64,000 nt of DNA, taken from Columba livia (lineage: Eukaryota). The notes beneath the pieces are model-generated. The model had not been told where the DNA came from and searched no databases. It saw only the letters and a program-made list of their open reading frames with translations. The position numbers and the translations under genes were made by a program. This document shows positions 1,281-58,190 of the stretch, piece by piece (position 1 is the first letter of the stretch; every line of letters begins with the position of its first letter). The stretch is from NCBI RefSeq assembly GCF_036013475.1, contig NC_088636.1:391066-455065 (forward strand). The letters run 5' to 3'.

Positions 1281-1417
1281 TCAGGTGGTGCGCGCGCGGG
1301 CGCCGGGCGGGAAGAGGTCGAGGCCGGTGCGCAGGATCTGCTGCTCCAGCGCCTGGTGCCGCTTCATGTCCCACAGCACCTTGTCCAGCGCCGCGCGCCG
1401 CGCCACGCGGCCGGCCC
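1281..1417 (-). CDS. PAGR1: PAGR1 terminal coding exon (stop at 1281-1283)
   Basis: The acceptor is tttcggcag at 1418-1419 on the minus strand. The translation is [45 protein letters not shown], compared with human [30 protein letters not shown]. Confidence 0.8.
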
Positions 1418-1426
1418 CTGCCGAAA

Positions 1427-2770
1427 CACCCCAAATCAGACCAAATCCACCCAAATCAGCCCAAATCTGCACCTTGTCCAGCGCCGCGCGCCGCGCCACG
1501 CGGCCGGCCCCTGCCGAAAACACACCAAATCAGACCAAATCCACCCAAATCCACCCAAATCTGCACCTTGTCCAGCGCCGCGCGCCGCGCCACGCGACCG
1601 GCCCCTGCCGAAAACACACCAAATCAGACCAAATCCACCCAAATCCACCCAAATCTGCACCTTGTCCAGCGCCGCGCGCCGCGCCACGCGGCCGGCCCCT
1701 GCCGAAACACCCCAAATCAGACCAAATCCACCCAAATCCACCCAAATCTGCACCTTGTCCAGCGCCGCGCGCCGCGCCACGCGACCGCCCCCTGCCCAAA
1801 TACCCCAAATCAGACCAAATCTGCCCATATCTGACCAAATCTGCCCAAATCCGCCCAAATCTGCACCTTGTCCAGCGCCGCGCGCCGCGCCACGCGACCG
1901 GCCCCTGCAAATACACCAAATCAGACCAAATCTGCCCAAATCAGCCCAAATCTGCACCTTGTCCAGCGCCGCGCGCCGCGCCACGCGACCGGCCCCTGCC
2001 GAAATACACCAAATCAGACCAAATCAGACCAAATCTGCACCGCGCCACGCGACCAACCCCTGCCGAAACACCCCAAATCAGCCCAAATCTGCCCAAATCT
2101 GCCCAAATCAGCCCAAATCAGCCCAAATCTGCCCAAATCTGCCCAAATCAGACCAAATCTGCCCAAATCTGCACCCTGTCCAGCGCCGCGCGCCGCGCCA
2201 CGCGACCGCCCCCTGCCCAAATACCCCAAATCAGACCAAATCTGACCAAATCAGCTCAAATCCGCCCAAATCAGCCCAAATCCGCCCCAAATCAGCCCAA
2301 ATCGGCCCAAATCAGCTCAAATCCGCCCCAAATCCGCCCCAAATCCACCCCGCGCCACGCGACCGCCCCCTGCAAATACACCAAATCAGACCAAGTCAGC
2401 CCAAATCTGCACCGCGCCACGCGACCGGCCCCTGCCGAAAACAGCACAAATCAGCCCAAATCTGCCCAAATCCACCCCAAATCCGCCCCAAATCCGCCCC
2501 GCGCCACGCGACCGCCCCCTGCCCAAAATACACCAAATCAGCCCAAATCAGCCCAAATCTGCACCGCGCCACGCGACCCGCCCCTGCCAAAAATACACCA
2601 AATCAGCCCAAATCTGCCCAAATCCACCCCAAATCCACAAAAATCAGCCCAAATCAGCCCAAATCCGCCCCAAATCCACCCAAAATCCGCCCCAAATCCG
2701 CCCCAAATCAGCCCAAATCTGCACCGCGCCACGCGCCCGCTCCCTGCCAAAAACAGCCCCTTTCAGCCCA
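1427..2770. repeat. Tandem array of about 120-bp units (plus truncated roughly 60-bp units) that copies the PAGR1 exon-3 acceptor and its first 45 nt
   Basis: Each unit contains caccttgtccagcgccgcgcgccgcgccacgcgRccgScccctgccgaaa, which is the reverse complement of the PAGR1 acceptor plus exon 3 start, followed by (accaaatcNNcccaaatc)n. Confidence 0.85.
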
Positions 2771-3010
2771 AATCTGCACCATGGGGGGGGTTGGGGGGGG
2801 GTTGGGGGGGTTTGGAGGGATTGAGGGGGGGTTGAGGGGGGGTTTGGGGGGGTTGGGGGGGGGTTGAGGGGGGGTTGGGGGGGATTGAGGGGGGTTGGGG
2901 GGGGTTTGAGGGGGGGTTTGGGGGGGGTTGGGGGGGTTTGGAGGGATTTAGGGGGGGTTTGGGGGGTTTGGGGGGGGTTTTTGGGGGGTTTTTTAGGGAG
3001 TTTTGGGGGG
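2771..3010. repeat. G-rich tract (G5-9 T/A)n
   Basis: Runs of gggggggg separated by tt or a. It has G-quadruplex potential on the plus strand. Confidence 0.8.
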
Positions 3011-25865: not shown

Positions 25866-25881
25866 TCCCCATCACCCCCAG

Positions 25882-27499: not shown

Positions 27500-27930
27500 C
27501 CCCCACTTTCTCCCCTATTGATCCCATTGGTCCCATTGGCCCCATTGACCCCATTCATCCCATTGGCTCCATTGATGCCATTGACCCCATTGATCCCATT
27601 GGCCCCATTGATCCCATTCATCCCATTGGCCCCATTGATCCCATTCATCCCATTGGCTCCATTCATCCTGTTGACCCCATTGATCCCATTGGCCCCATTG
27701 ACCCCATTCATCCCATTGGCTCCATTCATCACACTGATCCCATTGATCACATTGGCCCCATTGACCCCATTGATCCCATTGGTTCCATTCATCCCATTGA
27801 TCCCATTGGCTCCATTGACCCCATTCACCCCATTGATCCCATTGGCCCCACAGACCCCATTCACCCCACTGACCCCGTTCACCCCATTGACCCCATTGGC
27901 CCCATTGACCCCATTGCCCCCATTGCCCCC
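27500..27930. repeat. 9-bp tandem repeat (CCCATTGAT/CCCATTGGC), frame-preserving and possibly partly coding within the TAOK2 terminal exon
   Basis: The strict 9/18-bp period is open in all three plus frames. Frame 2 gives ([11 protein letters not shown])n, continuous with the TAOK2 TM-tail ORF. Confidence 0.85.
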
Positions 27931-28738
27931 ATCCACCCCCCCCCTTTCCCCCCCCTCCCCCCCTCCCCGCCCCGCCTCCCTCCCCCCCGCCCTCCCATTG
28001 GCCGCCGCCCTCCTGGCCGCCCTTTACCTCCGCCCCTCCCTCCCCCTCCTCCTCCTCCTCCTCCTCCTCTGGCTCCTCCCCCGCGCAGGGCGTGGCCACG
28101 CAGGGGGCGGGGCCGTGGGCGTGGCTTTAGCCCTGACCCTCCCAGACCCCTATTGGCGCTTTGGCCTCTTGACCTTGACCCTGACGGCGGGAATTTGGCC
28201 GTTTTTGGGTTTTTCCCCCAAAAACTACCGGGCGTACGCCCCCGTTTGCCTCCTGGCCGCCCAGTTCCTGCTGTTCCCGTGGCTCTTCCTGGCCTGTTAC
28301 CTGCTGGGCGTGGGGGGGCGGGGCTTCCTGGGGGGGCGGGGCTTTGGGGGGGTGCAGCGCTGGCTGTTCCGGGGGGTGCTGCGCTTGCCCCCCCCCGTTT
28401 TCCGCCTCCTTTCCCGTTTGGGTTTCGTATCCGAGCGCCGACTTTACCAATTTTACCCCAAAACGAGACCCGCCTGGCACTTCCGCTCCCGCCTGCCCAT
28501 CCCCCGGCGCGGCCCCGCCCCGCCCCCCCCGCCCCTCCCCCAGCGCCTCTGGCTCCGCCTCCGCCGCGCCTGCCGCAACGGGTGGGGGAGGGGGAGGGGG
28601 GCGGAGCCTCCGAGCCGCATCCCCCGCCCCTCCCCCCGCCCGCCCAAAGCGCCCCAAGGGCACGGGGGAGGGGCTAAAGCGGCGGGGGGGGCGGGGCGGG
28701 GAGCGGTGGCCCCGCCCCCGAGGAGACCGTGGAGGTGA
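27854..28738 (+). CDS. TAOK2: TAOK2 long-isoform terminal exon: Pro-rich and poly-Leu transmembrane tail (5' boundary tentative; stop at 28736-28738)
   Basis: In frame 2 the translation reads ...[13 protein letters not shown]...[20 protein letters not shown]...[19 protein letters not shown]...[27 protein letters not shown]...APPPRRPWR*. This matches the TM tail specific to human TAOK2 isoform 1: ...[13 protein letters not shown]...LWLRVLLRLSPMAF...LYPKTNKDGFRSRLPVPGPRRRNP...ALPPWR*. A candidate acceptor ccccacag at 27852-27853 lies in frame 2. Confidence 0.75.
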
Positions 28739-33354: not shown

Positions 33355-33400
33355 ATGGGCGGCGGGGAGAACGTGCTGCTCTTCCTGCCCAACGTCATCG
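33355..33400 (+). CDS. CDIPT: CDP-diacylglycerol--inositol 3-phosphatidyltransferase (PI synthase), exon 1 including the ATG
   Basis: ATG at 33355. The translation is MGGGENVLLFLPNVIG, compared with human MPDENIFLFVPNLIG. The donor is GTACGG. Confidence 0.9.
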
Positions 33401-35360
33401 GTACGGGAGCTGGGTGTACTGGTTATACTGGGTATACTGGGATATACTGGGGTGTACTGGGGTGTACTGGGATATACTGGGTCATACTGGGGTGTACTGG
33501 GATGTACTGGGGTGTACTGGGATATACTGGGAGTACTGGGGTGTACTGGGGTGTACTGGGGTGTACTGGGGTGTACTGGGATATACTGGGAGTACTGGGG
33601 TGTACTGGGGTGTACTGGGGTGTACTGGGAGTACTGGGTGTACTGGGGTGTACTGGGATATACTGGGATATACTGGGGTGTACTGGGTGTACTGGGGTGT
33701 ACTGGGATATACTGGGTTATACTGGGTCATACTGGGGTGTACTGGGGTGTACTGGGGTGTACTGGGGTGTACTGGGTTATACTGGGATGTACTGGGTTAT
33801 ACTGGGTTATACTGGGTTATACTGGGGTGTACTGGGGTGTACTGGGGTGTACTGGGTTATACTGGGATATACTGGGATATACTGGGATGTACTGGGTTAT
33901 ACTGGGATATACTGGGTTATACTGGGTTATACTGGGGTGTACTGGGGTGTACTGGGTTATACTGGGATATACTGGGTTATACTGGGATATACTGGGGTGT
34001 ACTGGGATATACTGGGATATACTGGGTATACTGGGTTATACTGGGATATACTGGGATATACTGGGATACACTGGGTTATACTGGGTCATACTGGGATATA
34101 CTGGGGTGTACTGGGGTGTACTGGGGTGTACTGGGTCATACTGGGATGTACTGGGATGTACTGGGGTGTACTGGGGTGTACTGGGTCATACTGGGATGTA
34201 CTGGGATGTACTGGGGTGTACTGGGGTGTACTGGGATATACTGGGATATACTGGGGTGTACTGGGATATACTGGGTCATACTGGGGTGTACTGGGATATA
34301 CTGGGATATACTGAGATATACTGGGATGTACTGGGATATACTGGGATATACTGGGGTGTACTGGGATATACTGGGTCATACTGGGGTGTACTGGGATATA
34401 CTGGGATATACTGAGATATACTGGGATGTACTGGGATATACTGGGGTGTACTGGGTGATACTGGGGACACTGGGATATATTGGGAGGCACTGGGAAGGGA
34501 TTTGGGGTGACTGGGAGGGACTGAGAAGGGGCTGGGGGTGACTGGGTCGTACTGGGTTGTACTGGGTTGTACTGGGTTATACTGGGTTGTACTGGGGATA
34601 CTGGGGGGGCTGGGGGGACTGGGATATATTGGGAGGGACTGGGAGGGACTGAGAAGGGACTGGGGGGAACTGGGGTGGATTGGGGGTGACTGGGTTGTAC
34701 TGGGTTGTACTGGGATGTACTGGGTTGTACTGGGTTGTACTGGGTTGTACTGGGTTGTACTGGGTTATACTGGGTTATACTGGGGAGAATGTGCTGCTGT
34801 TCCTGCCCAACGTCATCAGTATGTGGGGGTACTGGGGATACTGGGATATACTGGGACGGACTGGGGGGGCACTGGGGTATATTGGGATGGACTGGGGGGG
34901 CACTGGGATGGACTGGGGGGGCACTGGGGTATATTGGGATGGACTGGGGGGCACTGGGATGGACTGGGGGGGCACTTGGGTATATTGGGATGGACTGGGG
35001 GGGCACTGGGGTATATTGGGATGGACTGGGGGGGCACTGGGGTATATTGGGATGGACTGGGGGGGCACTGGGATATACTGGGATGAACTGGGGGGGCACT
35101 GGGGTATATTGGGATGGACTGGGGGGGCACTGGGGTATATTGGGATGAACTGGGGGGGCACTGGGGTATACTGGGATGAACTGGGGGGGCACTGGGGTAT
35201 ATTAGGATGGACTGGGGGGGCACTGGGGTATATTGGGATGGACTGGGGGGCACTGGGGTATATTGGGATGGACTGGGGGGCACTGGGATGGACTGGGGGG
35301 CACTGGGGTATATTGGGATGGACTGGGGGGCACTGGGGTGTATTGGGATGGACTGGGGGG
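33400..35360. repeat. Tandem satellite, 10-bp unit (GGGGTGTACT/GGGATATACT), switching to about 32-bp units (GGACTGGGGGGGCACTGGGGTATATTGGGATG); it contains a degenerate copy of CDIPT exon 1 at 34783-34825
   Basis: The array fills CDIPT intron 1. Confidence 0.9.
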
Positions 35361-40754: not shown

Positions 40755-40859
40755 ATCCGCCCCAAAACCAACCCGGGACCCCCGCAAAGTGTCCCCAAAA
40801 TACCCCCATAAATGGAGCAACCGCCGACCATGGAGGTGTTTCCTCTCCATTGACTCGTT

Positions 40860-43800: not shown

Positions 43801-45200
43801 AAAATGTTAATTAATAAGGGGTTAATTAAGAGTGGGGAGGGGTCAGCTGACCTTCTAGACCCCATAACCACCAACCCCATGTGGATACAATGACCATGGA
43901 CCCATTGAGACCCAAGAACCGTCAAGCCCATGGAGATGTTTCTCCACCATCGACTCATTAAGCCCTTGGCCAATCAAAAGGTTAATTAGTTATGGACTAA
44001 TTAAGAGTGGGGAGGGGTCAGCTGACCTTCTAGACCCCATAACCACCAACCCCATGTGGATACAATGACCATGGACCCATTGAGACCCAAGAACCATCAA
44101 CCCCATGGAGATGTTTCTCCACCATTGACTCATTAAGCCCTTGGCCAATCAAAATGTTAATTAATAAGGGGTTAATTAAGAGTGGGGAGGGGTCACCTGA
44201 CCTTCTAGACCCCATAACCACCAACCCCATGTAGACACCATGACCATGGACCCATTGAGACCCAATGACCATCAACCTCATGGAGATGTTTCCTCACCAT
44301 TGACTCATTAAGCCCTTGGCCAATCAAAAGGTTAATTAGTTATGGACTAATTAAGAGTGGGGAGGGGTCAGCTGACCTTCTAGACCCCATAACCACCAAC
44401 CCCAACCCATTGAGACCCAATGACCACCAACCCCATGGAGATGCAACCACCAACCCCTTGAGATGTTTCTCCACCACTGACTCATTAAGCCCTTGGCCAA
44501 TCAAAAGGTTAATTAGTTATGGACTAATTAAGAGTGGGGAGGGGTCAGCTGACCTTCTAGACCCCATAACCACCAACCCCATGTAGACACCATGACCATG
44601 GACCCATTGAGACCCAAGAACCGTCAACCCCATGGAGATGTTTCCTCACCATTGACTCATTAAACCCTTGGCCAATCAACGGGGGGTTAATTAGGGCTTA
44701 ATTAAGAGTGGGGGAGGAGCCACCTGACCTTCTAGACCCCATAACCACCAACCCCATTGAGATACAATGAATGACCTTGAACCCCATGGAGATGCAACCA
44801 CCAACCCCTTGAGATGTTTCTCCACCATCGACTCATTAAGCCCTTGGCCAATCAAAAGGTTAATTAGTTATGGACTAATTAAGAGTGGGGAGGGCTCAGC
44901 TGACCTTCTAGACCCCATAACCACCAACCCCATGTGGATACAATGACCATGGACCCATTGAGACCCAAGAACCATCAACCCCATGGAGATGTTTCTCCAC
45001 CATTGACTCCTTAAGCCCTTGGCCAATCAACGGGGGGTTAATTAGGGCTTAATTAGGACTGGGTGAGGAGCCACCTGACCTTCTAGACCCCATAACCACC
45101 AACCCCATTGAGATACAATGAATGACCTTGAACCCCATGGAGATGCAACCACCAACCCCATGGAGATGTTTCTCCACCATCGACTCATTAGCCCTTGGCC
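40860..45200. repeat. Satellite with about 175-bp monomers (about 25 copies, at least 3 alternating subtypes), each containing GGCCAATCA and TTAATTAAGAGTGGGG motifs
   Basis: The anchor CCTTGGCCAATCA recurs at 40863, 41018, 41175, 41349, 41524, 41701, 41876, 42053, 42226, 42403, 42577, 42755, 42931 and onward, with spacing of about 155-178 bp. Confidence 0.9.
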
Positions 45201-45266
45201 AATCAACGAAGGGGTTTAATTGCAGCCATGGGGAGGGCGGGGGCGGGGCGGGGAGGGGGCGGGGCC

Positions 45267-45514
45267 TCAGAGGCGCCGGATCTTCATCTCGCTCTTGCGC
45301 AGCGAGTAGTAGAAGCCCTTCCACTGGGCCCAGTTGATGCCGTTGGCGTAGGAGAGGTGGGCGCCCCCCAGGTAGAAGCCGTTGAGGTTGGAGAAGTGGC
45401 AGCTGCGGAACCACCAGGCGCCCGAGGAGAGCGCGGCGCAGTTCTGCACGTACAGGTCCTGGTCGCGGTCGAACGTCGAGAACTTCTGCCCGTTGTGGTA
45501 GCTCAGCGAGTCGC
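45267..45514 (-). CDS. MFAP4: MFAP4 terminal exon (stop at 45267-45269)
   Basis: The acceptor is (c)n-ag at 45516-45515. The translation is (G)[81 protein letters not shown], compared with MFAP4 [81 protein letters not shown]. Confidence 0.9.
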
Positions 45515-45589
45515 CTGGGGGGGGGGGGAGGGGAGGGGGGGAGGGGGGGGGAGGGGGCGTCATGGGGTGGCGGCGTTGGTCTGGGGACC

Positions 45590-48500
45590 CCACCCCATGA
45601 TCTCCCTCCCATTGACCCGCATTGATCCCCATTGACCCCCATTGACTCCCATTGACCCCCATTGACTCCCATTGACTCCCATTGACCCCCATTGACCCCC
45701 ATTGACTCCCATTGACCCCATTGACTCCCATTGACTCCCATTGACTCCCATTGACCCCCATTGACTCCCATTGATCCCCATTCACCCCCATTGACCCCCA
45801 ATGACTCCTGTTGACCCCCATTGACTCCCATTGATCCCATTGATCCCATTGACCCCCATTGACCCCCATTGACCAACGTTGACTTGATGTCCCTCCCATT
45901 GACCCCCATTGACCCCCACTGACTCCCATTGACCCCCACTGACTCCCATTGACCCCCATTGCCCCCCATTGCCCCCCATTGACCCCCATTGACCCCCATT
46001 GACTCCCATTGACTCCCATTGACTCCCATTGATCCCCATTGACCCCCATTGCCCCCCATTGACCCCCATTGACCCCCATTGCCCCCCATTGCCCCCCATT
46101 GCCCCCCATTGACCCCCATTGACTCCCATTGACTCCCATTGACTCCCATTGATCCCCATTGACTCCCATTGACCCCCATTGCCCCCCATTGCCCCCCATT
46201 GACCCCCATTGACCCCCACTGACTCCCATTGAACCCCATTGAACCCCATTGACCCCCATTGACTCCCATTGACTCCCATTGACTCCCATTGACCCCCATT
46301 GACCTCCATTGACCCCCATTGACCCCCATTGACCCCCATTGACTCCCATTGACTCCCATTGACCCCCATTGACTCCCATTGACTCCCATTGACCCCCATT
46401 GACCCCCATTGACTCCCATTGACCCCCATTGACTCCCATTGACTCCTGTTGACCCCCATTGACCCCCATTGATCCCCATTGATCCCCATTGACCCCCATT
46501 GACCCCCATTGACCCCCATTGACTCCCATTGATCCCCATTCACCCCCATTGACCCCCATTGACTCCTGTTGACCCCCATTGACTCCCATTGATCCCATTG
46601 ATCCCATTGACCCCCATTGACCCCCATTGACCCCCATTGACCCCCATTGACCAATGTTGACTTGATGTCCCTCCCATTGACCCCCATTGACCCCCATTGA
46701 CCCCCATTGACTCCCATTGACTCCCATTGACTCCCATTGATCCACATTGCCCCCCATTGCCCCCCATTGACCCCCATTGACCCCCATTGACCCCCATTGA
46801 CTCCCATTGACCCCCACTGACTCCCATTGACTCCCATTGACCCCCATTGACCCCCATTGCCCTCCATTGACCCCCATTGACCCCCATTGACTCCCATTGA
46901 CTCCCATTGATCCCCATTGCCCCCCATTGACTCCCATTGCCCCCCATTGACTCCCATTGACCCCCATTGACCCCCATTGACTCCCATTGACCCCCATTGA
47001 TCCCCATTGACTCCCATTGACTCCCATTGACTCCCATTGACCACCATTGACTCCCATTGACTCCCATTGACCCCCATTGACCCCCATTGACCCCCATTGA
47101 TCCCCATTGACTCCCATTGACCCCCATTGACTCCCATTGACCACCATTGACTCCCATTGACTCCCATTGACCCCCATTGACCCCCATTGACTCCCATTGA
47201 CCCCCATTGACTCCCATTGACTCCTGTTGACCCCCATTGACCCCCATTGATCCCCATTGACCCCCATTGACCCCCATTGACCCCCATTGACCCCCATTGA
47301 CTCCCATTGATCCCCATTCACCCCCATTGACCCCCAATGACTCCTGTTGACCCCCATTGACTCCCATTGATCCCATTGACCCCCATTGACCCCCTTTGAC
47401 CCCCATTGACTCCCATTGACCCCCATTGACCCCCATTGACCAACGTTGACTTGATGTCCCTCCCATTGACCCCCATTGACTCCCATTGACTCCCATTGAC
47501 TCCCATTGATCCCCATTGACTCCCATTGCCCCCCATTGACCCCCATTGACCCCCATTGACCCCCATTGACTCCCATTGACTCCCATTGACCCCCACTGAC
47601 TCCCATTGACCCCCATTGACCCCCATTGCCCCCCATTGACCCCCATTGACTCCCATTGACTCCCATTGACTCCCATTGACCCCCATTGACCCCCATTGAC
47701 CTCCATTGACCCCCATTGACTCCCATTGACTCCCATTGACTCCCATTGACCCCCATTGACCCCCATTGATCCCCATTGACTCCCATTGACCTCCATTGAC
47801 TCCCATTGACCAACGTTGACTTGATCTCCCTCCCATTGACCCCCATTGACCCCCATTGACCCCGATTGACCCCCATTGACTCCCATTGTTTCTCATTGAC
47901 CCCCATTGATCAACGCTGACTCCCGTTGACCCCCGTTGACCCCCATTGACCCCCATTGACTCCCATTGACCCCCCATGGCCAACGTTGACTTGATCTCCC
48001 TCCCATTGACCCCCGTTGACCCCCATTGACCCCCATTGACTCCCATTGCCCCCCATTGACTCTCATTGACCCCCATTGCACCCCATTGCCCCCCATTGCC
48101 CCCCATTGACCCCCATTGACCCCCATTGACCCCCATTGACCCCCATTGACTCCCATTGACCCCCACTGACTCCCATTGACCCCCATTGCCCCCCATTGCC
48201 CCCCATTGACCCCCATTGACTCCCATTGACTCCCATTGACTCCCATTGACTCCCATTGACTCCCATTGACCCCCATTGACCTCCATTGACCCCCACTGAC
48301 CCCCACTGACTCCCATTGACTCCCATTGACCTCCATTGACCCCCATTGACCCCCATTGACCCCCATTGACTCCCATTGACTCCCATTGACTCCCATTGAC
48401 CCCCATTGACCCCCATTGATCCCCATTGACTCCCATTGACCTCCATTGACTCCCATTGACCCCCATTGACCAACGTTGACTTGATCTCCCTCCCATTGAC

Positions 48501-50260
48501 CCCCATTGACCCCCATTGACCCCGATTGACCCCCATTGACTCCCATTGTTTCTCATTGACCCCCATTGACCAACGCTGACCCCCGTTGACCCCCGTTGAC
48601 CCCCATTGACCCCCATTGACTCCCATTGACCCCCCATGGCCAACGTTGACTTGATCTCCCTCCCATTGACCCCCGTTGACCCCCATTGACCCCCATTGAC
48701 TCCCATTGACTCCCATTGACCTCCCATGGCCAACGTTGACTTGATCTCCCTCCCATTGACCCCCGTTGACCCCCATTGACCCCCATTGACCCCCATTGAC
48801 TCCCATTGACCTCCCATGGCCAACGTTGACTTGATCTCCCTCCCACTGACCCCCGTTGACCCCCATTGACTCCCATTGACCCCCATTGACCCCCATTGCC
48901 CCCCATTGACTCCCATTGACCTCCATTGACCCCCATTGCCCCCCATTGACTCCCATTGCCCCCCATTGACTCCCATTGACCCCCACTGACTCCCATTGCC
49001 CCCCATTGCCCCCCATTGCCCCACTGCCCCCCCGTGGGGTCCCTCACCGGCGCCGCCGTCCACGAAGCCGCCCACGTGCAGGGTGTAGCCGTCCTCCTCC
49101 CCATGGCCCCATTGACCCATTGACCCCCATTGACCCCCATTGACCCCCATTGACCCCCATTGACTCCCATTGACTCCCATTGACCCCCATTGACTCCCAT
49201 TGACCCCCACTGACTCCCATTGCCCCCCATTGCCCCCCATTGCCCCACTGCCCACCCGTGGGGTCCCTCACCGGCGCCGCCGTCCACGAAGCCGCCCACG
49301 TGCAGGGTGTAGCCGTCCTCCTCCCCATGGCCCCATTGACCCACTGACCCCCACTGACCCCCATTGACCCCCATTGACCCCCATTGACCCCCATTGACTC
49401 TCATTGACTCCCATTGACCCCCATTGACCCCCATTGACTCCCATTGATCCCCATTGACCCCCATTGACTCCCATTGACCCCCATTTACCCCCATTGACTC
49501 CCATTGATCCCCATTGACTCCCATTGACCTCCATTGACTCCCATTGACCTCCATTGATTCCCATTGACCCCCATTGACTCCCATTGATCCCCATTGACTC
49601 CCATTGACCCCCATTGACCCCCATTGACCCCCATTGACTCCCATTGACCAATGCTGACTCCCGTTGACCCCCATTGACTCCCATTGACCCCCCATGGCCA
49701 ACGTTGACTTGATCTCCCTCCCATTGACCCCCATTGACCCCCATTGACCCCCATTGACTCCCATTGACTCCCATTGACTCTCATTGACTCTCATTGAGCC
49801 CCATTGACCCCCATTGACCCCCATTGACCCCCATTGACTCCCATTGACCCCCATTGACCCCGATTGACCCCCGTTGACTCCCATTGATGCCCATTGGCCC
49901 CCATTGGCCCTCATTGACCCCCATTGAACCCCCATTGACCCCCGTTGGCCCCCATTGACCAACGTTGACTTGATATCCCTCCCATTGATCCCCATTGACT
50001 CTCATTGACTCCCATTGCCCCCCATTGCCCCCCATTGACTCCCATTGCCCCCCATTGCCCCCCATTGCCCCCCATTGACTCCCATTGCCCCCCATTGACT
50101 CCCATTGCCCCCCATTGACTCCCATTGACTCCTATTGACCAACGTTGACTTGATGTCCCTCCCACTGACTCCCATTGCCCCCCATTGCCCCCCATTGCCC
50201 CCCATTGATCCCCATTGACCCCCACTGACTCCCATTGCCCCCCATTGCCCCACTGCCCCC
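45590..50260. repeat. Tandem satellite, 10-bp unit (CCCATTGACC/CCCATTGACT/CCCATTGCCC) with the recurring marker CCAACGTTGACTTGATGTCCCTCCCATTGAC; it embeds two partial copies of the MFAP4 exon-4 3' end and donor (49040-49100, 49260-49330)
   Basis: It fills MFAP4 intron 4. The minus-strand ORFs of 450-880 aa ([10 protein letters not shown]...) are artefacts. Confidence 0.9.
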
Positions 50261-50276
50261 CCGTGGGGTCCCTCAC

Positions 50277-50459
50277 CGGCGCCGCCGTCCACGAAGCCGC
50301 CCACGTGCAGGGTGTAGCCGTCCTCCTCGGCGCTCACGGCGTGGGGCGACAGCGCGAAGCTGCCGTAGGTGGCGGCCGCCGTGTTGTTCTCGAAGTCCTC
50401 GAGCTCCACGCGCAGCTCGTAGCGGCCCTGCAGCGTCAGCAGGTGCAGCGCCTGCAGCC
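50277..50459 (-). CDS. MFAP4: MFAP4 exon 4
   Basis: The acceptor is cccacacgcag and the donor is GTGAGG. The translation is (G)LQALHLLTLQGRYELRVELEDFENNTAAATYGSFALSPHAVSAEEDGYTLHVGGFVDGGA(G), compared with LQNMHLLTLKQKYELRVDLEDFENNTAYAKYADFSISPNAVSAEEDGYTLFVAGFEDGGAG. Confidence 0.9.
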
Positions 50460-50464
50460 CTGCG

Positions 50465-51990
50465 TGTGGGGCACATGTGGGGTGAGATTGGGGGTACAAA
50501 TGGGGCACAGTGGGGCGGGATATTGGGCAGGATCTGGGCAGGATGTGGGGTGGATGTGGGGCAGAAGATGGGGCACAGTGGGGTGGGATGTGGGCAGGAT
50601 GTGGGGTGGATGTGGGGCAGGATGTGGGGCAGCTCGTAGCGGCCCTGCAGCGTCAGCAGGTGCAGCGCCTGCAGCCCTGCGTGTGGGGCAGATGTGGGGT
50701 GAGATTTGGGGTACAAATGGGGCACAGTGGGGCGGGATATGGGGCAGGATCTGGGCAGGATGTGGGTGGGATATTGGGCAGGACATGGGTGGGATGTGGG
50801 GCCGATGTGGGGCAGAAGATGGGGCACAGTGGGGCGGGATATTGAGCAGGATCTGGGCAGGATGTGGGGTGGATGTGGGGCAGGATGTGGGTGGGATGTG
50901 GGGCAGAAGATGGGGCACAGTGGGGCGGGATATTGGGCAGGATGTGGGGTGGATGTGGGGCAGGATGTGGGGCAGGATGTGGGTGGGATGTGGGGCAGAA
51001 GATGGGGCACAGTGGGGCGGGATATTGAGCAGGATCTGGGGCAGGATGTGGGGCAGGATGTGGGGCGGGATGTGGGGCCGATGTGGGGCAGAAGATGGGG
51101 CACAGTGGGGCGGGATATTGGGCAGGATGTGGGGTGGATGTGGGGCAGGATGTGGGGCAGGATGTGGGTGGGATGTGGGGCAGAAGATGGGGCACAGTGG
51201 GGCGGGATATTGAGCAGGATGTGGGGTGGATGTGGGGCAGGATGTGGGGCAGCTCGTAGCGGCCCTGCAGCGTCAGCAGGTGCAGCGCCTGCAGCCCTGC
51301 GTGTGGGGCACATGTGGGGTGAGATTGGGGGTACAAATGGGGCACAGTGGGGCGGGATATTGGGCAGGATCTGGGCAGGATGTGGGGTGGATGTGGGGCG
51401 GGATGTGGGTGGGATGTGGGGCAGAAGATGGGGCACAGTGGGGCGGGATATTGGGCAGGATGTGGGGTGGATGTGGGGCAGGATGTGGGGCAGCTCGTAG
51501 CGGCCCTGCAGCGTCAGCAGGTGCAGCACCTGCAGCCCTGCGTGTGGGGCACATGTGGGGTGAGATTTGGGGTACAAATGGGGCACAGTGGGGCGGGATA
51601 TGGGGCAGGATCTGGGCAGGATGTGGGTGGGATGTGGGGTGGATGTGGGGCAGAAGATGGGGCGGGATGTGAGGTACAAATGGGGCATAGGGGGGTGGGA
51701 TATGGGGCAGGATGTGGGTGGGATGTGGGGCACAACATGGGCGGGATGTGGGGCAGAACATGGGGCGGGATGTGGGGCAGGATATGGGCAGGATGTGGGT
51801 GGGATGTGGGGCAGATGTGGGGCAGGATATAGGGCAGGATGTGGGGCAGGAGTGGGGCAGATGTGGGGCAGATGTGGGGCAGGAGTGGGGCAGATGTGGG
51901 GCAGGATGTGGGGCAGGATGTGGGGCAGAAGATGGGGCGGGATGTGGGACAGATATGGGGTGGGATGTGGGGCAGGATGTGGGGTATACT
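50465..51990. repeat. Tandem satellite, about 13-16-bp unit (GGATGTGGGGCAG and variants), with 3 embedded copies of the MFAP4 exon-4 5' end and acceptor (50628-50750, 51250-51360, 51488-51600)
   Basis: It fills MFAP4 intron 3. Confidence 0.85.
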
Positions 51991-52320: not shown

Positions 52321-52328
52321 GGACTCAC

Positions 52329-52425
52329 CCAGCCAGTACTCGCCGTCGGCGCGTCCAAACCCCTGCTTGTAGTCGTTCCAGCCCCGGAAAAAACTGACGG
52401 ATCCGTTAAATCGCTTCTGAAAAAC
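52329..52425 (-). CDS. MFAP4: MFAP4 exon 3
   Basis: The acceptor is cgtaattcag and the donor is GTGAGT. The translation is [32 protein letters not shown](G), compared with MFAP4 [33 protein letters not shown]. Confidence 0.9.
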
Positions 52426-52429
52426 CTGA

Positions 52430-53500
52430 ATTACGGGAGGGGGTTGGGGGGCCACCCGGACGCCTGGGTCCCTCCCCGAACGCCTGGGTCCCTCTCGGAC
52501 GCCTGGGTCCCCTCCCTCACTCCTGGGTCCCCCCCGCACTCCTGGGTCCCTCCCGAACACCTGCATCTCCCCTATATGAGATGGGTCCCTTAGGGAGACC
52601 AGATCTACCGATCTGGTGCTCAGGAGCACCAGGTCTACCACAATTCGGTCTCCCCACCCGGCACTCCTGGGTCCCCTCCCGAACTCCTGGGTCCCTCCCG
52701 AACTCCTGGGTCCCCCTGTACTCCTGGGTCCCTCCCGCGCTCCTGGGTCCCCTCTTAGACTTCTGGGTCGTCCCCCCCGCACTCCTGGGTCCCCTCCCAA
52801 ACTCCTGGCTATCTCCCGCACTCCTGGGTTCCCCCCGTACTCCTGGGTTCCCCCCCGCACTCCTGGGTCCCTCCTGCACTCCTGGGTCCCCCCCGCCCTC
52901 CTGGTTCGCCCCCCACACGCCTGTATCCCACATTAATTACATGGGTCACTCAGGGAGACCAGGTCTATCCAGGACCCACCCAGGGCCATCAGGTCTACCC
53001 CGAACATGATCCCTCGGAACTCCTGGGTTCCCTCCCGCATTCCTGGGTCCCTCCCGCACTCCTGGGTCCCTCCCGCACTCCTGGGTCCTCCGCGCCCTCC
53101 TGGTTCCCCCCCCAATGCCTGTATTCCGCATTAATTATATGGGTCACTCAAGGAGACCAGGTCTACCCAGGACCCACCCGGGGCCATCAGGTCTACCCTG
53201 AACATGATCCCTGGGTTCCCTCCCGAACTCCTGGGTTCCCTCCCGAACTCCTGGGTTGCCCCCCGCACTCCTGGGTCCCCTTGCACTCCTGGGTCCCTCC
53301 TGCACTCCTGGCCCCCCCCCCCCCACGCCTGCATCCCACATTATTTGGGTCACTCAGGGAGACCAGGTCTACCCAGGACCCACCCGGGGCCACCAGGTCT
53401 ACCCCAAAGTTGTTCCCTGGGAACTCCTGGGTTCCCTCCTGAACTCCTGGGTTCCCCCCCGAACTCCTGGGTCCCCCCGCACTCCCGGGTCCCCCCCGCA
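52430..53500. repeat. Tandem satellite, about 20-bp unit (CGCACTCCTGGGTCCCTCCC) with a roughly 190-210-bp higher-order marker (CATTAATTACATGGGTCACTCAGGGAGACCAGGTCTACCCAGGACCCACCC)
   Basis: The marker recurs at about 52920, 53110 and 53330. This is the reverse orientation of the GGGACCCAGG family. It fills MFAP4 intron 2. Confidence 0.85.
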
Positions 53501-53699: not shown

Positions 53700-56600
53700 G
53701 GAGGGGCGGTTGGGGGGGTGGTCCCATCGCCCCCATTGTCCCCATTGTCCCATTGTCCCCATTGTCCCATTGTCCCCATTGTCCCATTGTCCCATTGTCC
53801 CCATTGTCCCCATTGTCCCCATTGTCCCATTGTCCCATTGTCCCCATTGTCCCATTGTCCCCATTGTCCCCATTGTCCCCAATGTCCCCATTGTCCCATT
53901 GTCCCATTGTCCCATTGTCCCCATTGTCCCATTGTCCCCATTGTCCCCATTGTCCCCATTGTCCCCATTGTCCCCATTGTCCCATTGTCCCCATTGTCCC
54001 CATTGTCCCATTGTCCCATTGTCCCATTGTCCCCATTGTCCCATTGTCCCCATTGTCCCCATTGTCCCCAATGTCCCCATTGTCCCATTGTCCCCATTGT
54101 CCCCATTGTCCCATTGTCCCCATTGTCCCCATTGTCCCCATTGTCCCATTGTCCCCATTGTCCCATTGTCCCCATTGTCCCCATTGTCCCCATTGTCCCC
54201 ATTGTCCCATTGTCCCCATTGTCCCATTGTCCCCAATGTCCCATTGTCCCATTGTCCCATTGTCCCATTGTCCCATTGTCCCCATTGTCCCATTGTCCCA
54301 TTGTCCCCATTGTCCCATTGTCCCCATTGTCCCATTGTCCCATTGTCCCCTTGTCCCCTTGTCCCATTGTCCCATTGTCCCATTGTCCCCATTGTCCCAT
54401 TGTCCCCTTGTCCCATTGTCCCATTGTCCCCTTGTCCCATTGTCCCATTGTCCCCATTGTCCCATTGTCCCATTGTCCCATTGTCCCCATTGTCCCATTG
54501 TCCCCATTGTCCCCATTGTCCCCAATGTCCCCATTGTCCCCATTGTCCCATTGTCCCCATTGTCCCATTGTCCCCATTGTCCCCATTGTCCCATTGTCCC
54601 ATTGTCCCATTGTCCCCATTGTCCCATTGTCCCCAATGTCCCATTGTCCCATTGTCCCATTGTCCCCATTGTCCCATTGTCCCCATTGTCCCCTTGTCCC
54701 CACTGTCCCCATTGTCCCCAATGTCCCATTGTCCCATTGTCCCCATTGTCCCCATTGTCCCATTGTCCCCATTGTCCCCATTGTCCCATTGTCCCCATTG
54801 TCCCCACTGTCCCATTGTCCCATTGTCCCATTGTCTGTCCCATTGTCCCCATTGTCCCATTGTCCCATTGTCCCCATTGTCCCATTGTCCCATTGTCCCA
54901 TTGTCCCCATTGTCCCCATTGTCCCCATTGTCCCCTTGTCCCCATTGTCCCATTGTCCCCATTGTCCCATTGTCCCCATTGTCCCCATTGTCCCCATTGT
55001 CCCCATTGTCCCATTGTCCCATTGTCCCCATTGTCCCATTGTCCCCATTGTCCCCATTGTCCCCAATGTCCCCATTGTCCCCATTGTCCCATTGTCCCCA
55101 TTGTCCCATTGTCCCCATTGTCCCCATTGTCCCATTGTCCCATTGTCCCATTGTCCCCATTGTCCCATTGTCCCATTGTCTGTCCCATTGTCCCCATTGT
55201 CCCATTGTCCCATTGTCCCATTGTCCCATTGTCCCATTGTCTGTCCCATTGTCCCCATTGTCCCCTTGTCCCCACTGTCCCCATTGTCCCCAATGTCCCA
55301 TTGTCCCATTGTCCCATTGTCCCCATTGTCCCCATTGTCCCATTGTCCCATTGTCCCCATTGTCCCCACTGTCCCATTGTCCCCATTGTCCCATTGTCCC
55401 ATTGTCCCATTGTCTGTCCCATTGTCCCCATTGTCCCATTGTCCCATTGTCCCCATTGTCCCATTGTCCCCATTGTCCCATTGTCCCCATTGTCCCATTG
55501 TCCCATTGTCCCCATTGTCCCATTGTCCCCATTGTCCCCTTGTCCCATTGTCCCATTGTCCCCATTGTCCCATTGTCCCATTGTCCCATTGTCCCATTGT
55601 CCCCATTGTCCCCTTGTCCCCATTGTCCCATTGTCCCCATTGTCCCATTGTCCCCATTGTCCCCATTGTCCCCATTGTCCCCATTGTCCCATTGTCCCAT
55701 TGTCCCCATTGTCCCATTGTCCCCATTGTCCCCTTGTCCCATTGTCCCATTGTCCCCATTGTCCCCATTGTCCCATTGTCCCCATTGTCCCCATTGTCCC
55801 CATTGTCCCATTGTCCCCATTGTCCCCATTGTCCCCATTGTCCCCATTGTCCCCATTGTCCCCATTGTCCCATTGTCCCCATTGTCCCATTGTCTGTCCC
55901 ATTGTCCCATTGTCCCCATTGTCCCATTGTCCCATTGTCCCCATTGTCCCCATTGTCCCCAATGTCCCCATTGTCCCATTGTCCCATTGTCCCATTGTCC
56001 CCATTGTCCCATTGTCCCCATTGTCCCATTGTCCCATTGTCCCCATTGTCCCCATTGTCCCCATTGTCCCATTGTCCCCATTGTCCCCATTGTCCCATTG
56101 TCCCATTGTCCCATTGTCCCCATTGTCCCCATTGTCCCCATTGTCCCCTTGTCCCCATTGTCCCATTGTCCCCATTGTCCCATTGTCCCCATTGTCCCCA
56201 TTGTCCCATTGTCCCCATTGTCCCCATTGTCCCATTGTCCCCATTGTCCCATTGTCCCATTGTCCCCATTGTCCCATTGTCCCCATTGTCCCCTTGTCCC
56301 ATTGTCCCATTGTCCCCATTGTCCCCATTGTCCCATTGTCCCCATTGTCCCCATTGTCCCATTGTCCCATTGTCTGTCCCATTGTCCCATTGTCCCCATT
56401 GTCCCATTGTCCCATTGTCCCCATTGTCCCATTGTCCCATTGTCCCATTGTCCCCATTGTCCCATTGTCCCATTGTCCCATTGTCCCCATTGTCCCATTG
56501 TCCCATTGTCCCCATTGTCCCCATTGTCCCCATTGTCCCCATTGTCCCATTGTCCCCATTGTCCCATTGTCCCCATTGTCCCATTGTCCCCAATGTCCCC

Positions 56601-58190
56601 ATTGTCCCCATTGTCCCATTGTCCCCATTGTCCCATTGTCCCCATTGTCCCACTGTCCCCATTGTCCCATTGTCCCATTGTCCCATTGTCCCCACTGTCC
56701 CCATTGTCCCATTGTCCCATTGTCCCCATTGTCCCATTGTCCCCATTGTCCCACTGTCCCCATTGTCCCATTGTCCCCATTGTCCCCATTGTCCCCTTGT
56801 CCCATTGTCCCATTGTCCCATTGTCCCCATTGTCCCCATTGTCCCATTGTCCCATTGTCCCATTGTCCCATTGTCCCCATTGTCCCATTGTTCCATTGTC
56901 CCCATTGTCCCATTGTTCCATTGTCCCCATTGTCCCATTGTCCCATTGTCCCATTGTCCCATTGTCCCATTGTCCCCATGTCCCCATGTCCCCATTGTCC
57001 CATTGTCCCATTGTCCCCATTGTCCCCATTGTCCCATTGTCCCCATTGTCCCATTGTCCCCATTGTCCCCATTGTCCCATTGTCCCCATTGTCCCCTTGT
57101 CCCCATTGTCCCATTGTCCCCATTGTCCCCATTGTCCCCATTGTCCCCATTGTCCCATTGTCCCCATTGTCCCATTGTCCCATTGTCCCATTGTCCCCAT
57201 TGTCCCATTGTCCCATTGTCCCAATGTCCCCATTGTCCCCATTGTCCCATTGTCCCCATTGTCCCATTGTCCCCATTGTCCCACTGTCCCCATTGTCCCA
57301 TTGTCCCATTGTCCCATTGTCCCCATTGTCCCCATTGTCCCATTGTCCCCATTGTCCCCTTGTCCCCATTGTCCCATTGTCCCCATTGTCCCCATTGTCC
57401 CCATTGTCCCCATTGTCCCATTGTCCCCATTGTCCCATTGTCCCATTGTCCCATTGTCCCATTGTCCCATTGTCCCCATTGTCCCATTGTCCCCAATGTC
57501 CCCATTGTCCCATTGTCCCCATTGTCCCATTGTCCCATTGTCCCCAATGTCCCATTGTCCCATTGTCCCATTGTCCCATTGTCCCCATTGTCCCCATTGT
57601 CCCATTGTCCCCATTGTCCCCATTGTCCCATTGTCCCCATTGTCCCCATTGTCCCATTGTCCCATTGTCCCATTGTCCCATTGTCCCCATTGTCCCATTG
57701 TCCCATTGTCCCATTGTCCCCATTGTCCCATTGTCCCATTGTCCCATTGTCCCCATTGTCCCCATTGTCCCATTGTCCCCATTGTCCCATTGTCCCATTG
57801 TCCCATTGTCCCCATTGTCCCATTGTCCCCAATGTCCCCATTGTCCCATTGTCCCATTGTCCCATTGTCCCATTGTCCCCATTGTCCCATTGTCCCCATT
57901 GTCCCCATTGTCCCATTGTCCCCAATGTCCCCATTGTCCCATTGTCCCATTGTCCCATTGTCCCATTGTCCCCATTGTCCCATTGTCCCCATTGTCCCCA
58001 TTGTCCCATTGTCCCCAATGTCCCCATTGTCCCATTGTCCCCATTGTCCCCATTGTCCCATTGTCCCCATTGTCCCCATTGTCCCATTGTCCCATTGTCC
58101 CATTGTCCCATTGTCCCATTGTCCCATTGTCCCCATTGTCCCATTGTCCCATTGTCCCATTGTCCCCCTGTCCGTCCCGTGTCCGTCCGT
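53700..58190. repeat. Tandem satellite, 8/9-bp unit (CCCATTGT/CCCCATTGT), 4.5 kb, stop-free in all six frames
   Basis: It fills MFAP4 intron 1. It produces six ORFs of 1500-1700 aa (GQWDNGTMG... and PIVPLSHCP...) that are artefacts. Confidence 0.9.

What the first reader, a model, noticed from the sequence alone, without database searches (positions are those of the whole stretch)
49040..51600. Both boundaries of MFAP4 exon 4 are duplicated inside the flanking satellites
The 3' 55 nt of exon 4 plus its GTGAGG donor and about 25 nt of intron (gtggggtccctcaccggcgccgccgtccacgaagccgcccacgtgcagggtgtagccgtcctcctc) recur at 49040-49100 and 49260-49330 inside the CCCATTGACC array. The 5' 50 nt plus acceptor and about 60 nt of upstream intron (cagctcgtagcggccctgcagcgtcagcaggtgcagcgcctgcagccctgcgtgtggggca...ggggtacaaatggggcacagtggggcgggatat) recur at 50628-50750, 51250-51360 and 51488-51600 inside the GGATGTGGGGCAG array. 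Together with the PAGR1 case and a degenerate CDIPT exon-1 copy (34783-34825, GENVLLFLPNVISMWG with the GT retained), this suggests satellite arrays in this region are seeded from, or repeatedly capture, exon-edge sequence. That would point to unequal exchange or replication slippage nucleated at exon boundaries.
Basis: seen in the sequence. Interest (0 to 1): 0.75.

Follow-up and report, generated by a model that had tools for sequence, protein, structure and literature searches.

The report
Pigeon MFAP4 exon-edge copies ("exon stuttering")
Short pieces of both ends of one pigeon MFAP4 exon, each with its splice site, really are repeated inside the neighbouring repeat-filled introns, but this is a fresh example of the recently published "exon stuttering" of bird dot chromosomes, not a new phenomenon.

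Summary
The window is Columba livia; MFAP4 lies on the minus strand and the target exon is 50277-50459 (coding exon 5 of 6). Its last 52 nt plus donor recur at 49011-49099 and 49235-49323. Its first 48 nt plus acceptor recur at 50629-50757, 51249-51377 and 51490-51618, all at 98-100% identity. It is not an assembly artefact. A second C. livia assembly has all five copies at the same spacing. Patagioenas fasciata has 18 acceptor-side copies with the same junction. Caloenas and Cuculus have none. The flanking satellites predate the copies and recur elsewhere in the window, so the arrays captured the exon edges and were not seeded by them. The breakpoints lie 48-52 nt inside the exon, not at its boundary. 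PAGR1 and CDIPT show the same thing. The phenomenon is already published as "sequence/exon stuttering" on avian dot chromosomes (Hron et al., Genome Biol Evol 2026, PMC12954441), and chicken MFAP4 is on their list. Most likely mechanism: a rare tandem duplication across the exon-intron border, then amplification by unequal exchange within G4-rich arrays. It is tolerated because the intact exon survives and the decoys lack partner splice sites. Interest is low to moderate.

The parts
50277..50459 (-). Authentic MFAP4 exon (183 nt, phase 1-1, coding exon 5 of 6). Acceptor AG at 50461-50460 and donor GT at 50276-50275. Encodes (G)LQALHLLTLQGRYELRVELEDFENNTAAATYGSFALSPHAVSAEEDGYTLHVGGFVDGGA(G).
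50629..50757 (-). Acceptor-side decoy R1: first 48 nt of the exon (50629-50676), the acceptor, and about 80 nt of upstream intron. Junction in sense orientation is ...CTACGAGCTGC|CCCACATCC.
51249..51377 (-). Acceptor-side decoy R2 (129/129 identical to 50412-50540). Shares its intron variants with the true copy.
51490..51618 (-). Acceptor-side decoy R3 (126/129). Shares its intron variants with R1, giving a B-A-B-A pattern. Carries a CpG>TpG change in the exon part.
49235..49323 (-). Donor-side decoy L2: last 52 nt of the exon (49272-49323), the GTGAGG donor, 15 nt of unique intron, and satellite. Junction in sense orientation is ...GGCCATGGG|GAGGAGGAC.
49011..49099 (-). Donor-side decoy L1 (89/89 identical to 50240-50328), 224 nt beyond L2.
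45608..50251 (-). Intron array of the 10-mer GGTCAATGGG (sense strand), about 466 units. It starts 25 nt after the donor, hosts L1 and L2, and has 88 canonical G4 motifs on the sense strand.
50462..51984 (-). Intron array of the 12-mer ATCCTGCCCCAC (sense strand). It abuts the acceptor and supplies the polypyrimidine tract, hosts R1-R3 within higher-order units of 217-241 nt, and has 15-32 G4 motifs on the antisense (+) strand.
52328..52430 (-). Preceding MFAP4 exon ([33 protein letters not shown]). No copies found.
45270..45515 (-). Last MFAP4 coding exon. No copies in Columba; three acceptor-side copies in Patagioenas.
1376..2255 (-). Same phenomenon in PAGR1: the acceptor plus the first 43 nt of the last exon (true copy 1376-1418), repeated 7 times in a 93-nt higher-order unit. 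Junction is GGACAAGGTGC|AGATTTGGG.
34782..34821 (+). Same phenomenon in CDIPT: one degenerate copy of the 3' end of exon 1 plus the donor (source 33364-33403).

Best explanation
These are 'exon-stuttering' copies. They are DNA-level partial duplications that span an exon-intron border in a gene whose introns consist almost entirely of minisatellite. Inferred step 1: a rare head-to-tail duplication has one breakpoint inside the exon and the other inside the adjacent array. This leaves the intact exon in place and deposits a truncated exon edge, with its splice site, in the intron. Step 2, shown by the copy patterns: the new composite unit (exon fragment plus some monomers) behaves as a higher-order repeat and is amplified or contracted by unequal exchange or slippage. 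Copy number therefore differs between lineages, 3 in Columba and 18 in Patagioenas. The two sides of the exon come from separate events of different age. The acceptor-side event predates the Columba-Patagioenas split. The donor-side event is Columba-specific, or was lost in Patagioenas. Inferred: the copies are tolerated by-products. Only duplications that span a border are both visible and harmless, because those within the array look like ordinary satellite and those within the exon would break the protein. The decoys also lack partner splice sites. The trigger may be fork stalling or repair in the G4-rich arrays, with microhomology-guided rejoining, but that remains conjecture.
For: The copies include intron sequence and splice sites and lie head-to-tail in the adjacent introns. 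One junction...GAGCTGC|CCCACATCC, is shared by all 3 Columba and all 18 Patagioenas copies. There are no copies in Caloenas or Cuculus. Exon identity to Columba is 98.4%, 96.2% and 92.3% for Patagioenas, Caloenas and Cuculus, which gives the branching order. Donor-side copies occur only in Columba. A second C. livia assembly has all five copies at identical spacing, although it differs from the window by 113 gap openings over 11.8 kb and by 83 nt in length of the intron between the target exon and the last exon. Higher-order structure is seen as TRF periods of 241 nt (95% matches) and 92/185 nt, as B-A-B-A variant sharing, and as a 753-nt six-copy super-unit duplicated in Patagioenas. The arrays are older than the copies and are not private to this locus. 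The coding exon is intact, and two independent gene models both skip the decoys. The only donor-like site downstream of the decoy acceptors scores 4.2 against 9.2 for the true donor. No pyrimidine-rich acceptor precedes the decoy donors. Using a decoy acceptor would add 217, 837 or 1078 nt and cause a frameshift or a stop. G4 motifs: 88 on the sense strand of the 10-mer array, 15-32 on the antisense strand of the 12-mer array, and none in the exon. All measured properties fall within the published ranges for exon stuttering, and chicken MFAP4 is a listed case (PMC12954441).
Against: The founding mechanism is not demonstrated. Junction microhomology is convincing only for the finch event (8 nt, null P about 0.0015). 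For the pigeon acceptor junction it is 4 nt only if the parent monomer was the CCTGC variant (6 of 22 present-day contexts, P about 0.02). For the other junctions it is 0-3 nt or undeterminable. A single origin of the shared junction is the parsimonious reading but not proven, because CTGC occurs five times in the first 48 nt of the exon and recurrence at the same site is possible. Neutrality of the decoys is inferred from sequence only. No pigeon transcript data were reachable, and the search for a read-through product was a weak negative. I could not verify whether the two C. livia assemblies come from different birds or different read sets.
Confidence: 0.85

Rival explanations
1. Assembly artefact: the copies are mis-joined or collapsed reads of the single authentic exon within hard-to-assemble satellite.
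For: The region is 72% short-period tandem repeat and G4-rich, which is the kind of sequence that assemblers and polymerases handle badly. The copies are nearly identical to the exon.
Against: A separately deposited C. livia assembly (GCA_032206205.1) has the same five copies at the same spacing while differing elsewhere by many indels. Patagioenas fasciata carries the same junction 18 times. The copies carry private and shared variants that form a consistent pattern.
Confidence: 0.03
2. Seeding: the flanking satellite arrays originated from exon-edge sequence, so the exon is the source of the repeat cluster. phrase some of their cases.
For: The exon fragments are now integral parts of the repeating higher-order units. 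[quoted passage not shown]
Against: The 12-mer and 10-mer monomers bear no resemblance to the exon. The orthologous arrays exist in Caloenas (about 41 units abutting the exon) and as short arrays in Cuculus, both without any exon copy. The same monomer families form other arrays in the window, for example 19877-22625, 24549-25872, 27513-27939 and 53723-58167. Exon-bearing units are a minority of each array.
Confidence: 0.05
3. Functional decoys: the duplicated splice sites are selected elements that modulate MFAP4 splicing, for example as splice-site sinks, kinetic delays or NMD-coupled regulation.
For: Each copy keeps an intact AG or GT with the native flanks. All 18 Patagioenas copies retain the AG. 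The acceptor-side copies have persisted since before the Columba-Patagioenas split. PMC12954441 notes that such copies create potential alternatively spliced transcripts.
Against: The copies are too young (98-100% identity) for retention of AG or GT to indicate selection. Copy number is wildly different between sister genera, and the copies are absent in Caloenas and Cuculus, where the same exon is spliced normally. There are no partner splice sites, and every read-through product is out of frame or terminated. Gene models skip the decoys, and no read-through product is on record (weak).
Confidence: 0.05
4. Recurrent independent insertions at a hotspot: the same junction arose separately in Columba and Patagioenas because the CTGC microhomology channels breakpoints to one site.
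For: Exon-edge capture clearly recurs: different breakpoints are seen in finch, in the Patagioenas last exon, in PAGR1 and in CDIPT. The junction sits in a possible 4-nt microhomology.
Against: CTGC occurs five times in the first 48 nt, yet both genera use the same one. The satellite side of the junction is also the same (CCCACATCC[T/C]GCCCCACATC). The independent events found elsewhere all have different breakpoints.
Confidence: 0.07

Closest known systems
Sequence stuttering / exon stuttering of avian dot-chromosome genes (Hron et al., Genome Biol Evol 2026;18(3):evag038, PMC12954441; preprint 10.1101/2025.09.16.676548)
   Same: Partial copies of a lateral part of a coding exon, including its splice site and adjoining intron, are scattered in tandem clusters through the adjacent repeat-filled intron while the exon itself stays intact. 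The published ranges are an exon part of 20-187 bp (median 36), 1-44 copies (median 4) and a span of 112-23,555 bp, and they cover this case (48 and 52 nt; 3 and 2 copies; about 1.2 kb each). Chicken MFAP4 on chr38 is one of their 115 genes.
   Different: The published screen covers chicken only. This is pigeon, with events that cannot be the chicken ones, because Caloenas and Cuculus lack them. The paper gives no junction or breakpoint analysis and says orthologous introns expanded independently in each species. Here one founding junction is shared by two genera, and the arrays demonstrably predate the captured exon fragment.
Higher-order repeat formation in satellite and minisatellite arrays by unequal crossing-over (the classical Smith model; alpha-satellite HORs)
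   Same: A composite unit of several monomers plus a foreign insert is repeated with higher identity between units than between monomers. Copy number changes rapidly between lineages, and multi-unit blocks are duplicated (753 nt in Patagioenas).
   Different: The arrays here are euchromatic and intronic, only 1.5-4.6 kb long, and the marker sequence that defines the higher-order unit is a piece of a functional exon.
Microhomology-mediated tandem duplication and G4-associated polymerase-theta end joining (cited by Hron et al.: Kruisselbrink 2008, Lemmens 2015, Kamp 2021)
   Same: Head-to-tail duplications lie next to dense G4 motifs, and short microhomology is possible at the junctions (8 nt in finch, up to 4 nt in pigeon).
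   Different: Microhomology is not consistently above chance. No templated insertions were seen. No genetic or replication-direction evidence is available.
Intronic pseudo-exons and decoy splice sites in vertebrate genes
   Same: Intronic sequences with perfectly good 3' or 5' splice-site motifs are normally ignored because they lack a properly spaced partner site.
   Different: Here the decoys are exact recent copies of the real sites with their exonic flanks, present in arrays of up to 18, rather than chance matches.

Membership tests
Exon stuttering (Hron et al. 2026) | Partial copies of a coding exon in the proximal (adjacent) intron, above the BLASTn bit-score threshold of 42.1 | tested here: met
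   Five copies with bit scores of 83-95 for the exon part alone, all in the two adjacent introns.
Exon stuttering (Hron et al. 2026) | Source segment starts within about 1 nt of the exon border, so the copy spans the border and carries the splice site and intron sequence | tested here: met
   The source segments are 50277-50328 and 50412-50459, exactly the exon ends. The copies continue through GTGAGG or the AG into the intron.
Exon stuttering (Hron et al. 2026) | Copies lie in tandem clusters within introns heavily covered by simple or tandem repeats | tested here: met
   TRF arrays at 45608-50251 and 50510-51984, with higher-order periods of 217-241 nt. 72% of the window is short-period repeat.
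Exon stuttering (Hron et al. 2026) | The coding exon itself remains intact | tested here: met
   The assembled protein is 100% identical to the RefSeq MFAP4-like protein, and a second gene model agrees.
Exon stuttering (Hron et al. 2026) | Location on a dot (smallest, GC-rich) microchromosome | tested here: inconclusive
   The pigeon contig is 490 kb. The orthologues lie on chromosome-level records of 0.77-2.1 Mb in Caloenas, Cuculus and Patagioenas, and on chicken chr38. The pigeon chromosome assignment itself was not available.
Exon stuttering (Hron et al. 2026) | Intraspecific intron-length polymorphism | tested here: inconclusive
   Two C. livia assemblies differ by 83 nt in the intron downstream of the target exon and by many satellite indels, but they have the same number of exon copies. 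Only two assemblies were compared, and their independence was not verified.
Higher-order repeat generated by unequal exchange | Multi-monomer units more similar to each other than the constituent monomers are, with block duplications | tested here: met
   The 241-nt period shows 95% matches, against 65-67% for the 12- and 23-nt periods of the same array. The variant pattern is B-A-B-A, and a six-copy 753-nt block is duplicated in Patagioenas.
Microhomology-mediated tandem duplication (TMEJ / MMBIR type) | Junction microhomology above random expectation | tested here: inconclusive
   Finch: 8 nt (P about 0.0015). Pigeon acceptor: 4 nt with 6 of 22 satellite contexts (P about 0.02), otherwise 0-1 nt. 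Other junctions: 0-3 nt or undeterminable.
Microhomology-mediated tandem duplication (TMEJ / MMBIR type) | Dependence on polymerase theta, or on fork stalling at G4 structures | not testable with these tools
   Only the density of G4 motifs could be shown.
Assembly artefact | Absent from independent assemblies and from related species | tested here: not met
   Present in GCA_032206205.1 and, on the acceptor side, in Patagioenas.
Retroposed (RNA-mediated) exon fragment | The copy lacks intron sequence or carries spliced exon-exon junctions | tested here: not met
   All copies include the unspliced intron flank and the splice site.
Recursive splice site / functional decoy exon | A 3' splice site immediately followed by a regenerated 5' splice site, or a paired donor within exon-definition distance | tested here: not met
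   The sequence after the AG is GGCTGC, with no GT. The only donor-like site nearby scores 4.2 against 9.2 for the true donor. Actual usage is not testable here.

The most novel reading that the evidence does not exclude
Exon-edge capture is not harmless debris. Founding events would be rare, microhomology-guided template switches at G4-stalled forks. The resulting arrays of exact splice-site decoys (up to 18 upstream acceptors in Patagioenas) would progressively divert splicing into frameshifted, NMD-targeted products. This would supply the missing mechanistic link between sequence stuttering and the heavy gene loss on avian dot chromosomes. The shared Columba/Patagioenas junction would then give a dated, traceable system in which to measure that process.
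Probability: 0.12. Interest if true: 0.6.

Novelty: new member of a known kind. Interest (0 to 1): 0.3.

Why it matters
The phenomenon was first described in 2025-2026, in chicken only, and its mechanism is openly unknown. This pigeon locus shows that it occurs in Columbiformes and again, independently, at the same exon in a passerine. It also shows that a single founding junction can persist across genera while copy number runs from 3 to 18. The arrays are older than the captured exon pieces, so this is capture rather than seeding. These points narrow the mechanism to a rare border-spanning duplication followed by frequent unequal exchange. They also give a concrete locus where splice-decoy effects and junction formation can be tested. 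For annotation, such decoys are a practical hazard, because exon-like hits with valid splice sites lie inside introns.

Tried and rejected
(1) Exact look-up of the pigeon RefSeq protein P0001 in the contig index found nothing. I reached the pigeon relatives through its 90% cluster instead. (2) The Lagopus protein look-up failed, so no galliform locus was examined. The chicken case rests on the paper's supplement only. (3) The automatic exon picker in the cross-species screen was fooled in the two C. livia loci by a 27%-identity HSP through translated satellite. I redid those with explicit exon coordinates. (4) CDIPT exon 1 is not covered by any comparison locus, so that copy could not be dated. 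PAGR1 relatives were not fetched. (5) The objective microhomology test failed for two junctions because no matching satellite context was found. It was mis-specified for CDIPT. It was also contaminated for PAGR1 by degenerate exon-derived contexts. I therefore do not claim microhomology as established. (6) The search for a product joining the upstream exon to a decoy read-through found none, but canonical pigeon transcript fragments are also missing from that collection, so it is only a weak negative. (7) The 54-nt insert repeated at 16330-17800 was considered as a further exon-edge case. It does not look coding and no source exon was found, so it is left open. (8) Human MFAP4, CDIPT and PAGR1 sequences written from memory were used only as tblastn probes to locate exons. 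No conclusion rests on their accuracy. (9) The prokaryote, phage and RNA-family tools were judged irrelevant to a bird nuclear locus and were not used.
Full report
**What is there**

The window is bird DNA. A protein assembled from four minus-strand exons is 100% identical to the MFAP4-like protein XP_064900379.1 of Columba livia, which sits on a 490-kb contig. MFAP4 runs on the minus strand:
- ATG at 60104
- exons ending or lying at about 60087, 58262-58200, 53680-53518, 52430-52328, 50459-50277 and 45515-45270.

The exon in the finding is 50277-50459. It is 183 nt, phase 1-1, with an AG acceptor and a GTGAGG donor. By this model it is coding exon 5 of 6, so "exon 4" is only a numbering difference. 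CDIPT lies on the plus strand at 33.3-40.7 kb and PAGR1 on the minus strand at 1.3-6.2 kb. About 72% of the window is short-period tandem repeat, and the exons are small islands between arrays.

**Check of the observation**

- Donor side: 49011-49099 (89/89 identical) and 49235-49323 (88/89). Each holds the last 52 nt of the exon, the donor, 15 nt of unique intron and the start of the 10-mer array. In gene orientation the copy is joined on its upstream side to satellite at ...GGCCATGGG|GAGGAGGAC.
- Acceptor side: 50629-50757, 51249-51377 (129/129) and 51490-51618. Each holds the first 48 nt of the exon, the acceptor and about 80 nt of upstream intron. Each is joined on its downstream side to satellite at ...CTACGAGCTGC|CCCACATCC.
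- E-values of 1e-40 to 1e-64 exclude chance.

The PAGR1 and CDIPT cases are also real. The PAGR1 acceptor plus the first 43 nt of its last exon occurs seven more times in a 93-nt higher-order unit at 1469-2213. One degenerate copy of the CDIPT exon-1 3' end plus donor lies at 34782-34821. Among the 14 exons I could place in the three genes, four edges carry proximal copies, and every copy starts exactly at the exon border.

**Not an artefact, and datable**

I fetched orthologous loci through the protein's cluster.
- A second C. livia assembly (GCA_032206205.1, a 37-kb contig) has all five copies at identical spacings: 241/620/217 nt on the acceptor side and 1005/224 nt on the donor side. It nevertheless differs from the window by 113 gap openings over 11.8 kb, by one 10-nt unit right beside a copy, and by 83 nt in the length of the downstream intron.
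- Patagioenas fasciata has 18 acceptor-side copies, all with the same 48-nt breakpoint and the same satellite sequence after it. They include a six-copy, 753-nt block that is itself duplicated. It has no donor-side copy.
- Caloenas nicobarica and Cuculus canorus have only the authentic exon.
- Exon identity to Columba is 98.4% (Patagioenas), 96.2% (Caloenas) and 92.3% (Cuculus), which gives the branching order.

The simplest reading is this. One acceptor-side founding event occurred before the Columba-Patagioenas split and after the split from Caloenas, and was then amplified to different extents. A later, separate donor-side event occurred in the Columba lineage.

**Capture, not seeding, and not nucleated at the boundary**

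The 12-mer CTGCCCCACATC array already abuts this exon in Caloenas (about 41 units) and is present as a short array in Cuculus. GGTCAAYGG-type repeats lie downstream of the exon in both species. Neither species has an exon copy. The same monomer families form other arrays in the window, for example 19877-22625 in the opposite orientation. The monomers are unrelated to the exon sequence.

So pre-existing arrays captured the exon edges, and the exon did not seed them. The breakpoints lie 48 and 52 nt inside the exon and within the satellite, so the exon-intron boundary is spanned rather than targeted. Exon edges are probably what we see because of geometry and survivorship (inference). A duplication of about 100-250 nt that lies wholly within an array is indistinguishable from satellite. 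One wholly within an exon would damage the protein. One that spans a border leaves an intact exon plus a visible fragment.

**Recurrence**

Other independent events with other breakpoints exist.
- Patagioenas has three copies of the first 59 nt of the last MFAP4 exon.
- The Darwin's finch Camarhynchus parvulus has four copies of the first 30 nt of the orthologous exon, plus one donor-side copy of the preceding exon.

**Mechanistic clues**

The copies are head-to-tail and contain unspliced intron, so they arose at the DNA level. Higher-order structure is clear:
- a 241-nt period at 95% matches, against 65-67% for the 12- and 23-nt periods of the same array
- intron variants shared in a B-A-B-A pattern among the three decoys and the true copy
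- the block duplication in Patagioenas.

This fits amplification by unequal exchange, including exchange between a decoy and the true exon edge.

For the founding step I compared junction microhomology with a null of random exon-by-array breakpoints.
- The finch junction lies in 8 nt shared by the exon and the modal monomer (TGACCCTG, P about 0.0015).
- The pigeon acceptor junction has 4 nt (CTGC) only for 6 of 22 present-day monomer contexts (P about 0.02).
- The other junctions give 0-3 nt or could not be evaluated.

Microhomology-guided joining is therefore compatible with the data but not established. The arrays are dense in G-quadruplex motifs on opposite strands: 88 on the sense strand in the 10-mer array and 15-32 on the antisense strand in the 12-mer array. 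The exon has none. This is consistent with, but does not prove, replication-stress models.

**Consequences for splicing (inferred from sequence)**

The decoy sites are identical to the real ones but have no partners. Downstream of the decoy acceptors the only donor-like site scores 4.2 on a simple weight matrix, against 9.2 for the true donor. That site is created by a CpG>TpG change inside one decoy. No pyrimidine-rich AG precedes the decoy donors. Using a decoy acceptor with the true donor would add 217, 837 or 1078 nt, giving a frameshift or a stop.

Two independent gene models skip the decoys. A search of the protein collection for a product joining the upstream exon to a decoy read-through found none. 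This is a weak negative, because canonical pigeon transcript fragments are also absent there.

**Comparison with what is known**

The phenomenon is published. Hron et al. (Genome Biol Evol 2026, PMC12954441; preprint September 2025) describe "sequence stuttering" and "exon stuttering" on chicken dot chromosomes.
- 115 genes, 1,345 partial exon copies and 236 introns, 190 of them on dot chromosomes.
- More than 90% of sources lie within 1 nt of the exon border and include the splice site.
- The exon part is 20-187 bp (median 36), with 1-44 copies (median 4).
- Chicken MFAP4 (chr38) is one of their listed genes.

The pigeon case meets every sequence-level criterion. Dot-chromosome location and intraspecific polymorphism are supported only indirectly. 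A second paper reports that tandem repeats make up more than 70% of dot-chromosome introns in zebra finch, with units mostly in multiples of 10-11 bp and enriched for G4 motifs. That matches this window.

Hron et al. offer only speculation on mechanism. They do not analyse junctions, since "microhomology" and "breakpoint" do not occur in the text. They state that orthologous introns expanded independently in different species.

The increments here are:
- a founding junction shared by two genera
- evidence that the arrays predate the captured exon pieces
- independent recurrence at the same exon in a passerine
- a first, inconclusive, junction test.

**Verdict**

This is a new instance of a recently described kind and is probably a tolerated by-product of array instability. 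Interest is low to moderate.

Noticed in passing
window 1376-2800 (minus strand): The PAGR1 last-exon acceptor plus its first 43 nt is repeated 7 times in a 93-nt higher-order unit (1469-2213). Further upstream, to about 2780, older copies carry an internal deletion between GCGCGG direct repeats (GTGGCGCGG|TGCAG), showing decay of captured fragments.
   Followed up: partly
window 34782-34821 vs 33364-33403 (plus strand): A single degenerate (92.5%) copy of the CDIPT exon-1 3' end plus donor lies 1.4 kb into intron 1, inside the TACTGGG array. The exon-final G is changed to A but the GT is retained. It could not be dated because no comparison locus covers it.
   Followed up: partly
window 16330-17800: A 54-nt complex insert (CAGGACCCACAGCCCCYGTTGTGGTGGTTTTTCTAGGTGTCCTCTTGCTTTTGT) is repeated five times within the CCTGCCCCATAGAT array. 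It does not look coding and its source is unknown. It may be a captured non-exonic fragment.
   Followed up: partly
window 19877-22625; 24549-25872; 27513-27939; 53723-58167: The monomer families that flank the MFAP4 exon (CTGCCCCACATC and CCCATTGAC/CCCATTGTC) also form separate arrays in other parts of the window, one of them in the opposite orientation. The minisatellite families are therefore shared between introns and not strictly local in origin.
   Followed up: partly
window 40830-45206: A 175/351-bp satellite (about 23 units, 78-89% matches) fills the whole gap between the convergent 3' ends of CDIPT and MFAP4.
   Followed up: no
L003 (Patagioenas fasciata) 14749, 15588, 16219 vs 16762: There are three exact copies of the acceptor plus the first 59 nt of the last MFAP4 exon, each joined to GTCAATGGGG satellite. 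This event is absent from Columba.
   Followed up: partly
L006 (Camarhynchus parvulus) 8448, 8846, 9065, 9184 vs 9282; 8226-8286 vs 7956-8014: Stuttering arose independently at the same exon in a passerine. Four copies of its first 30 nt have a junction inside an 8-nt exon/satellite microhomology (TGACCCTG). There is also one donor-side copy of the preceding exon.
   Followed up: partly
window 51490-51537; L003 12299 and 13154: One Columba decoy and two Patagioenas decoys share a CpG>TpG change (GGCTGCAGGTGCTG) that creates a weak CAG|GTGCTG donor-like site 8 nt after the decoy acceptor. It could be inherited from the common ancestor or be recurrent CpG decay.
   Followed up: no
window 45516-50276 vs L002 13271-18114: The intron between the target exon and the last exon differs by 83 nt between the two C. 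livia assemblies, and other satellite indels are scattered through the gene. This is consistent with the intron-length polymorphism reported for chicken.
   Followed up: partly
window 45608-50251 and 50462-51984: The two arrays flanking the exon carry their G-runs on opposite strands. Downstream of the donor the array is G-rich on the sense strand. Upstream of the acceptor it is C-rich on the sense strand, so the satellite itself supplies the polypyrimidine tract of the acceptor.
   Followed up: partly
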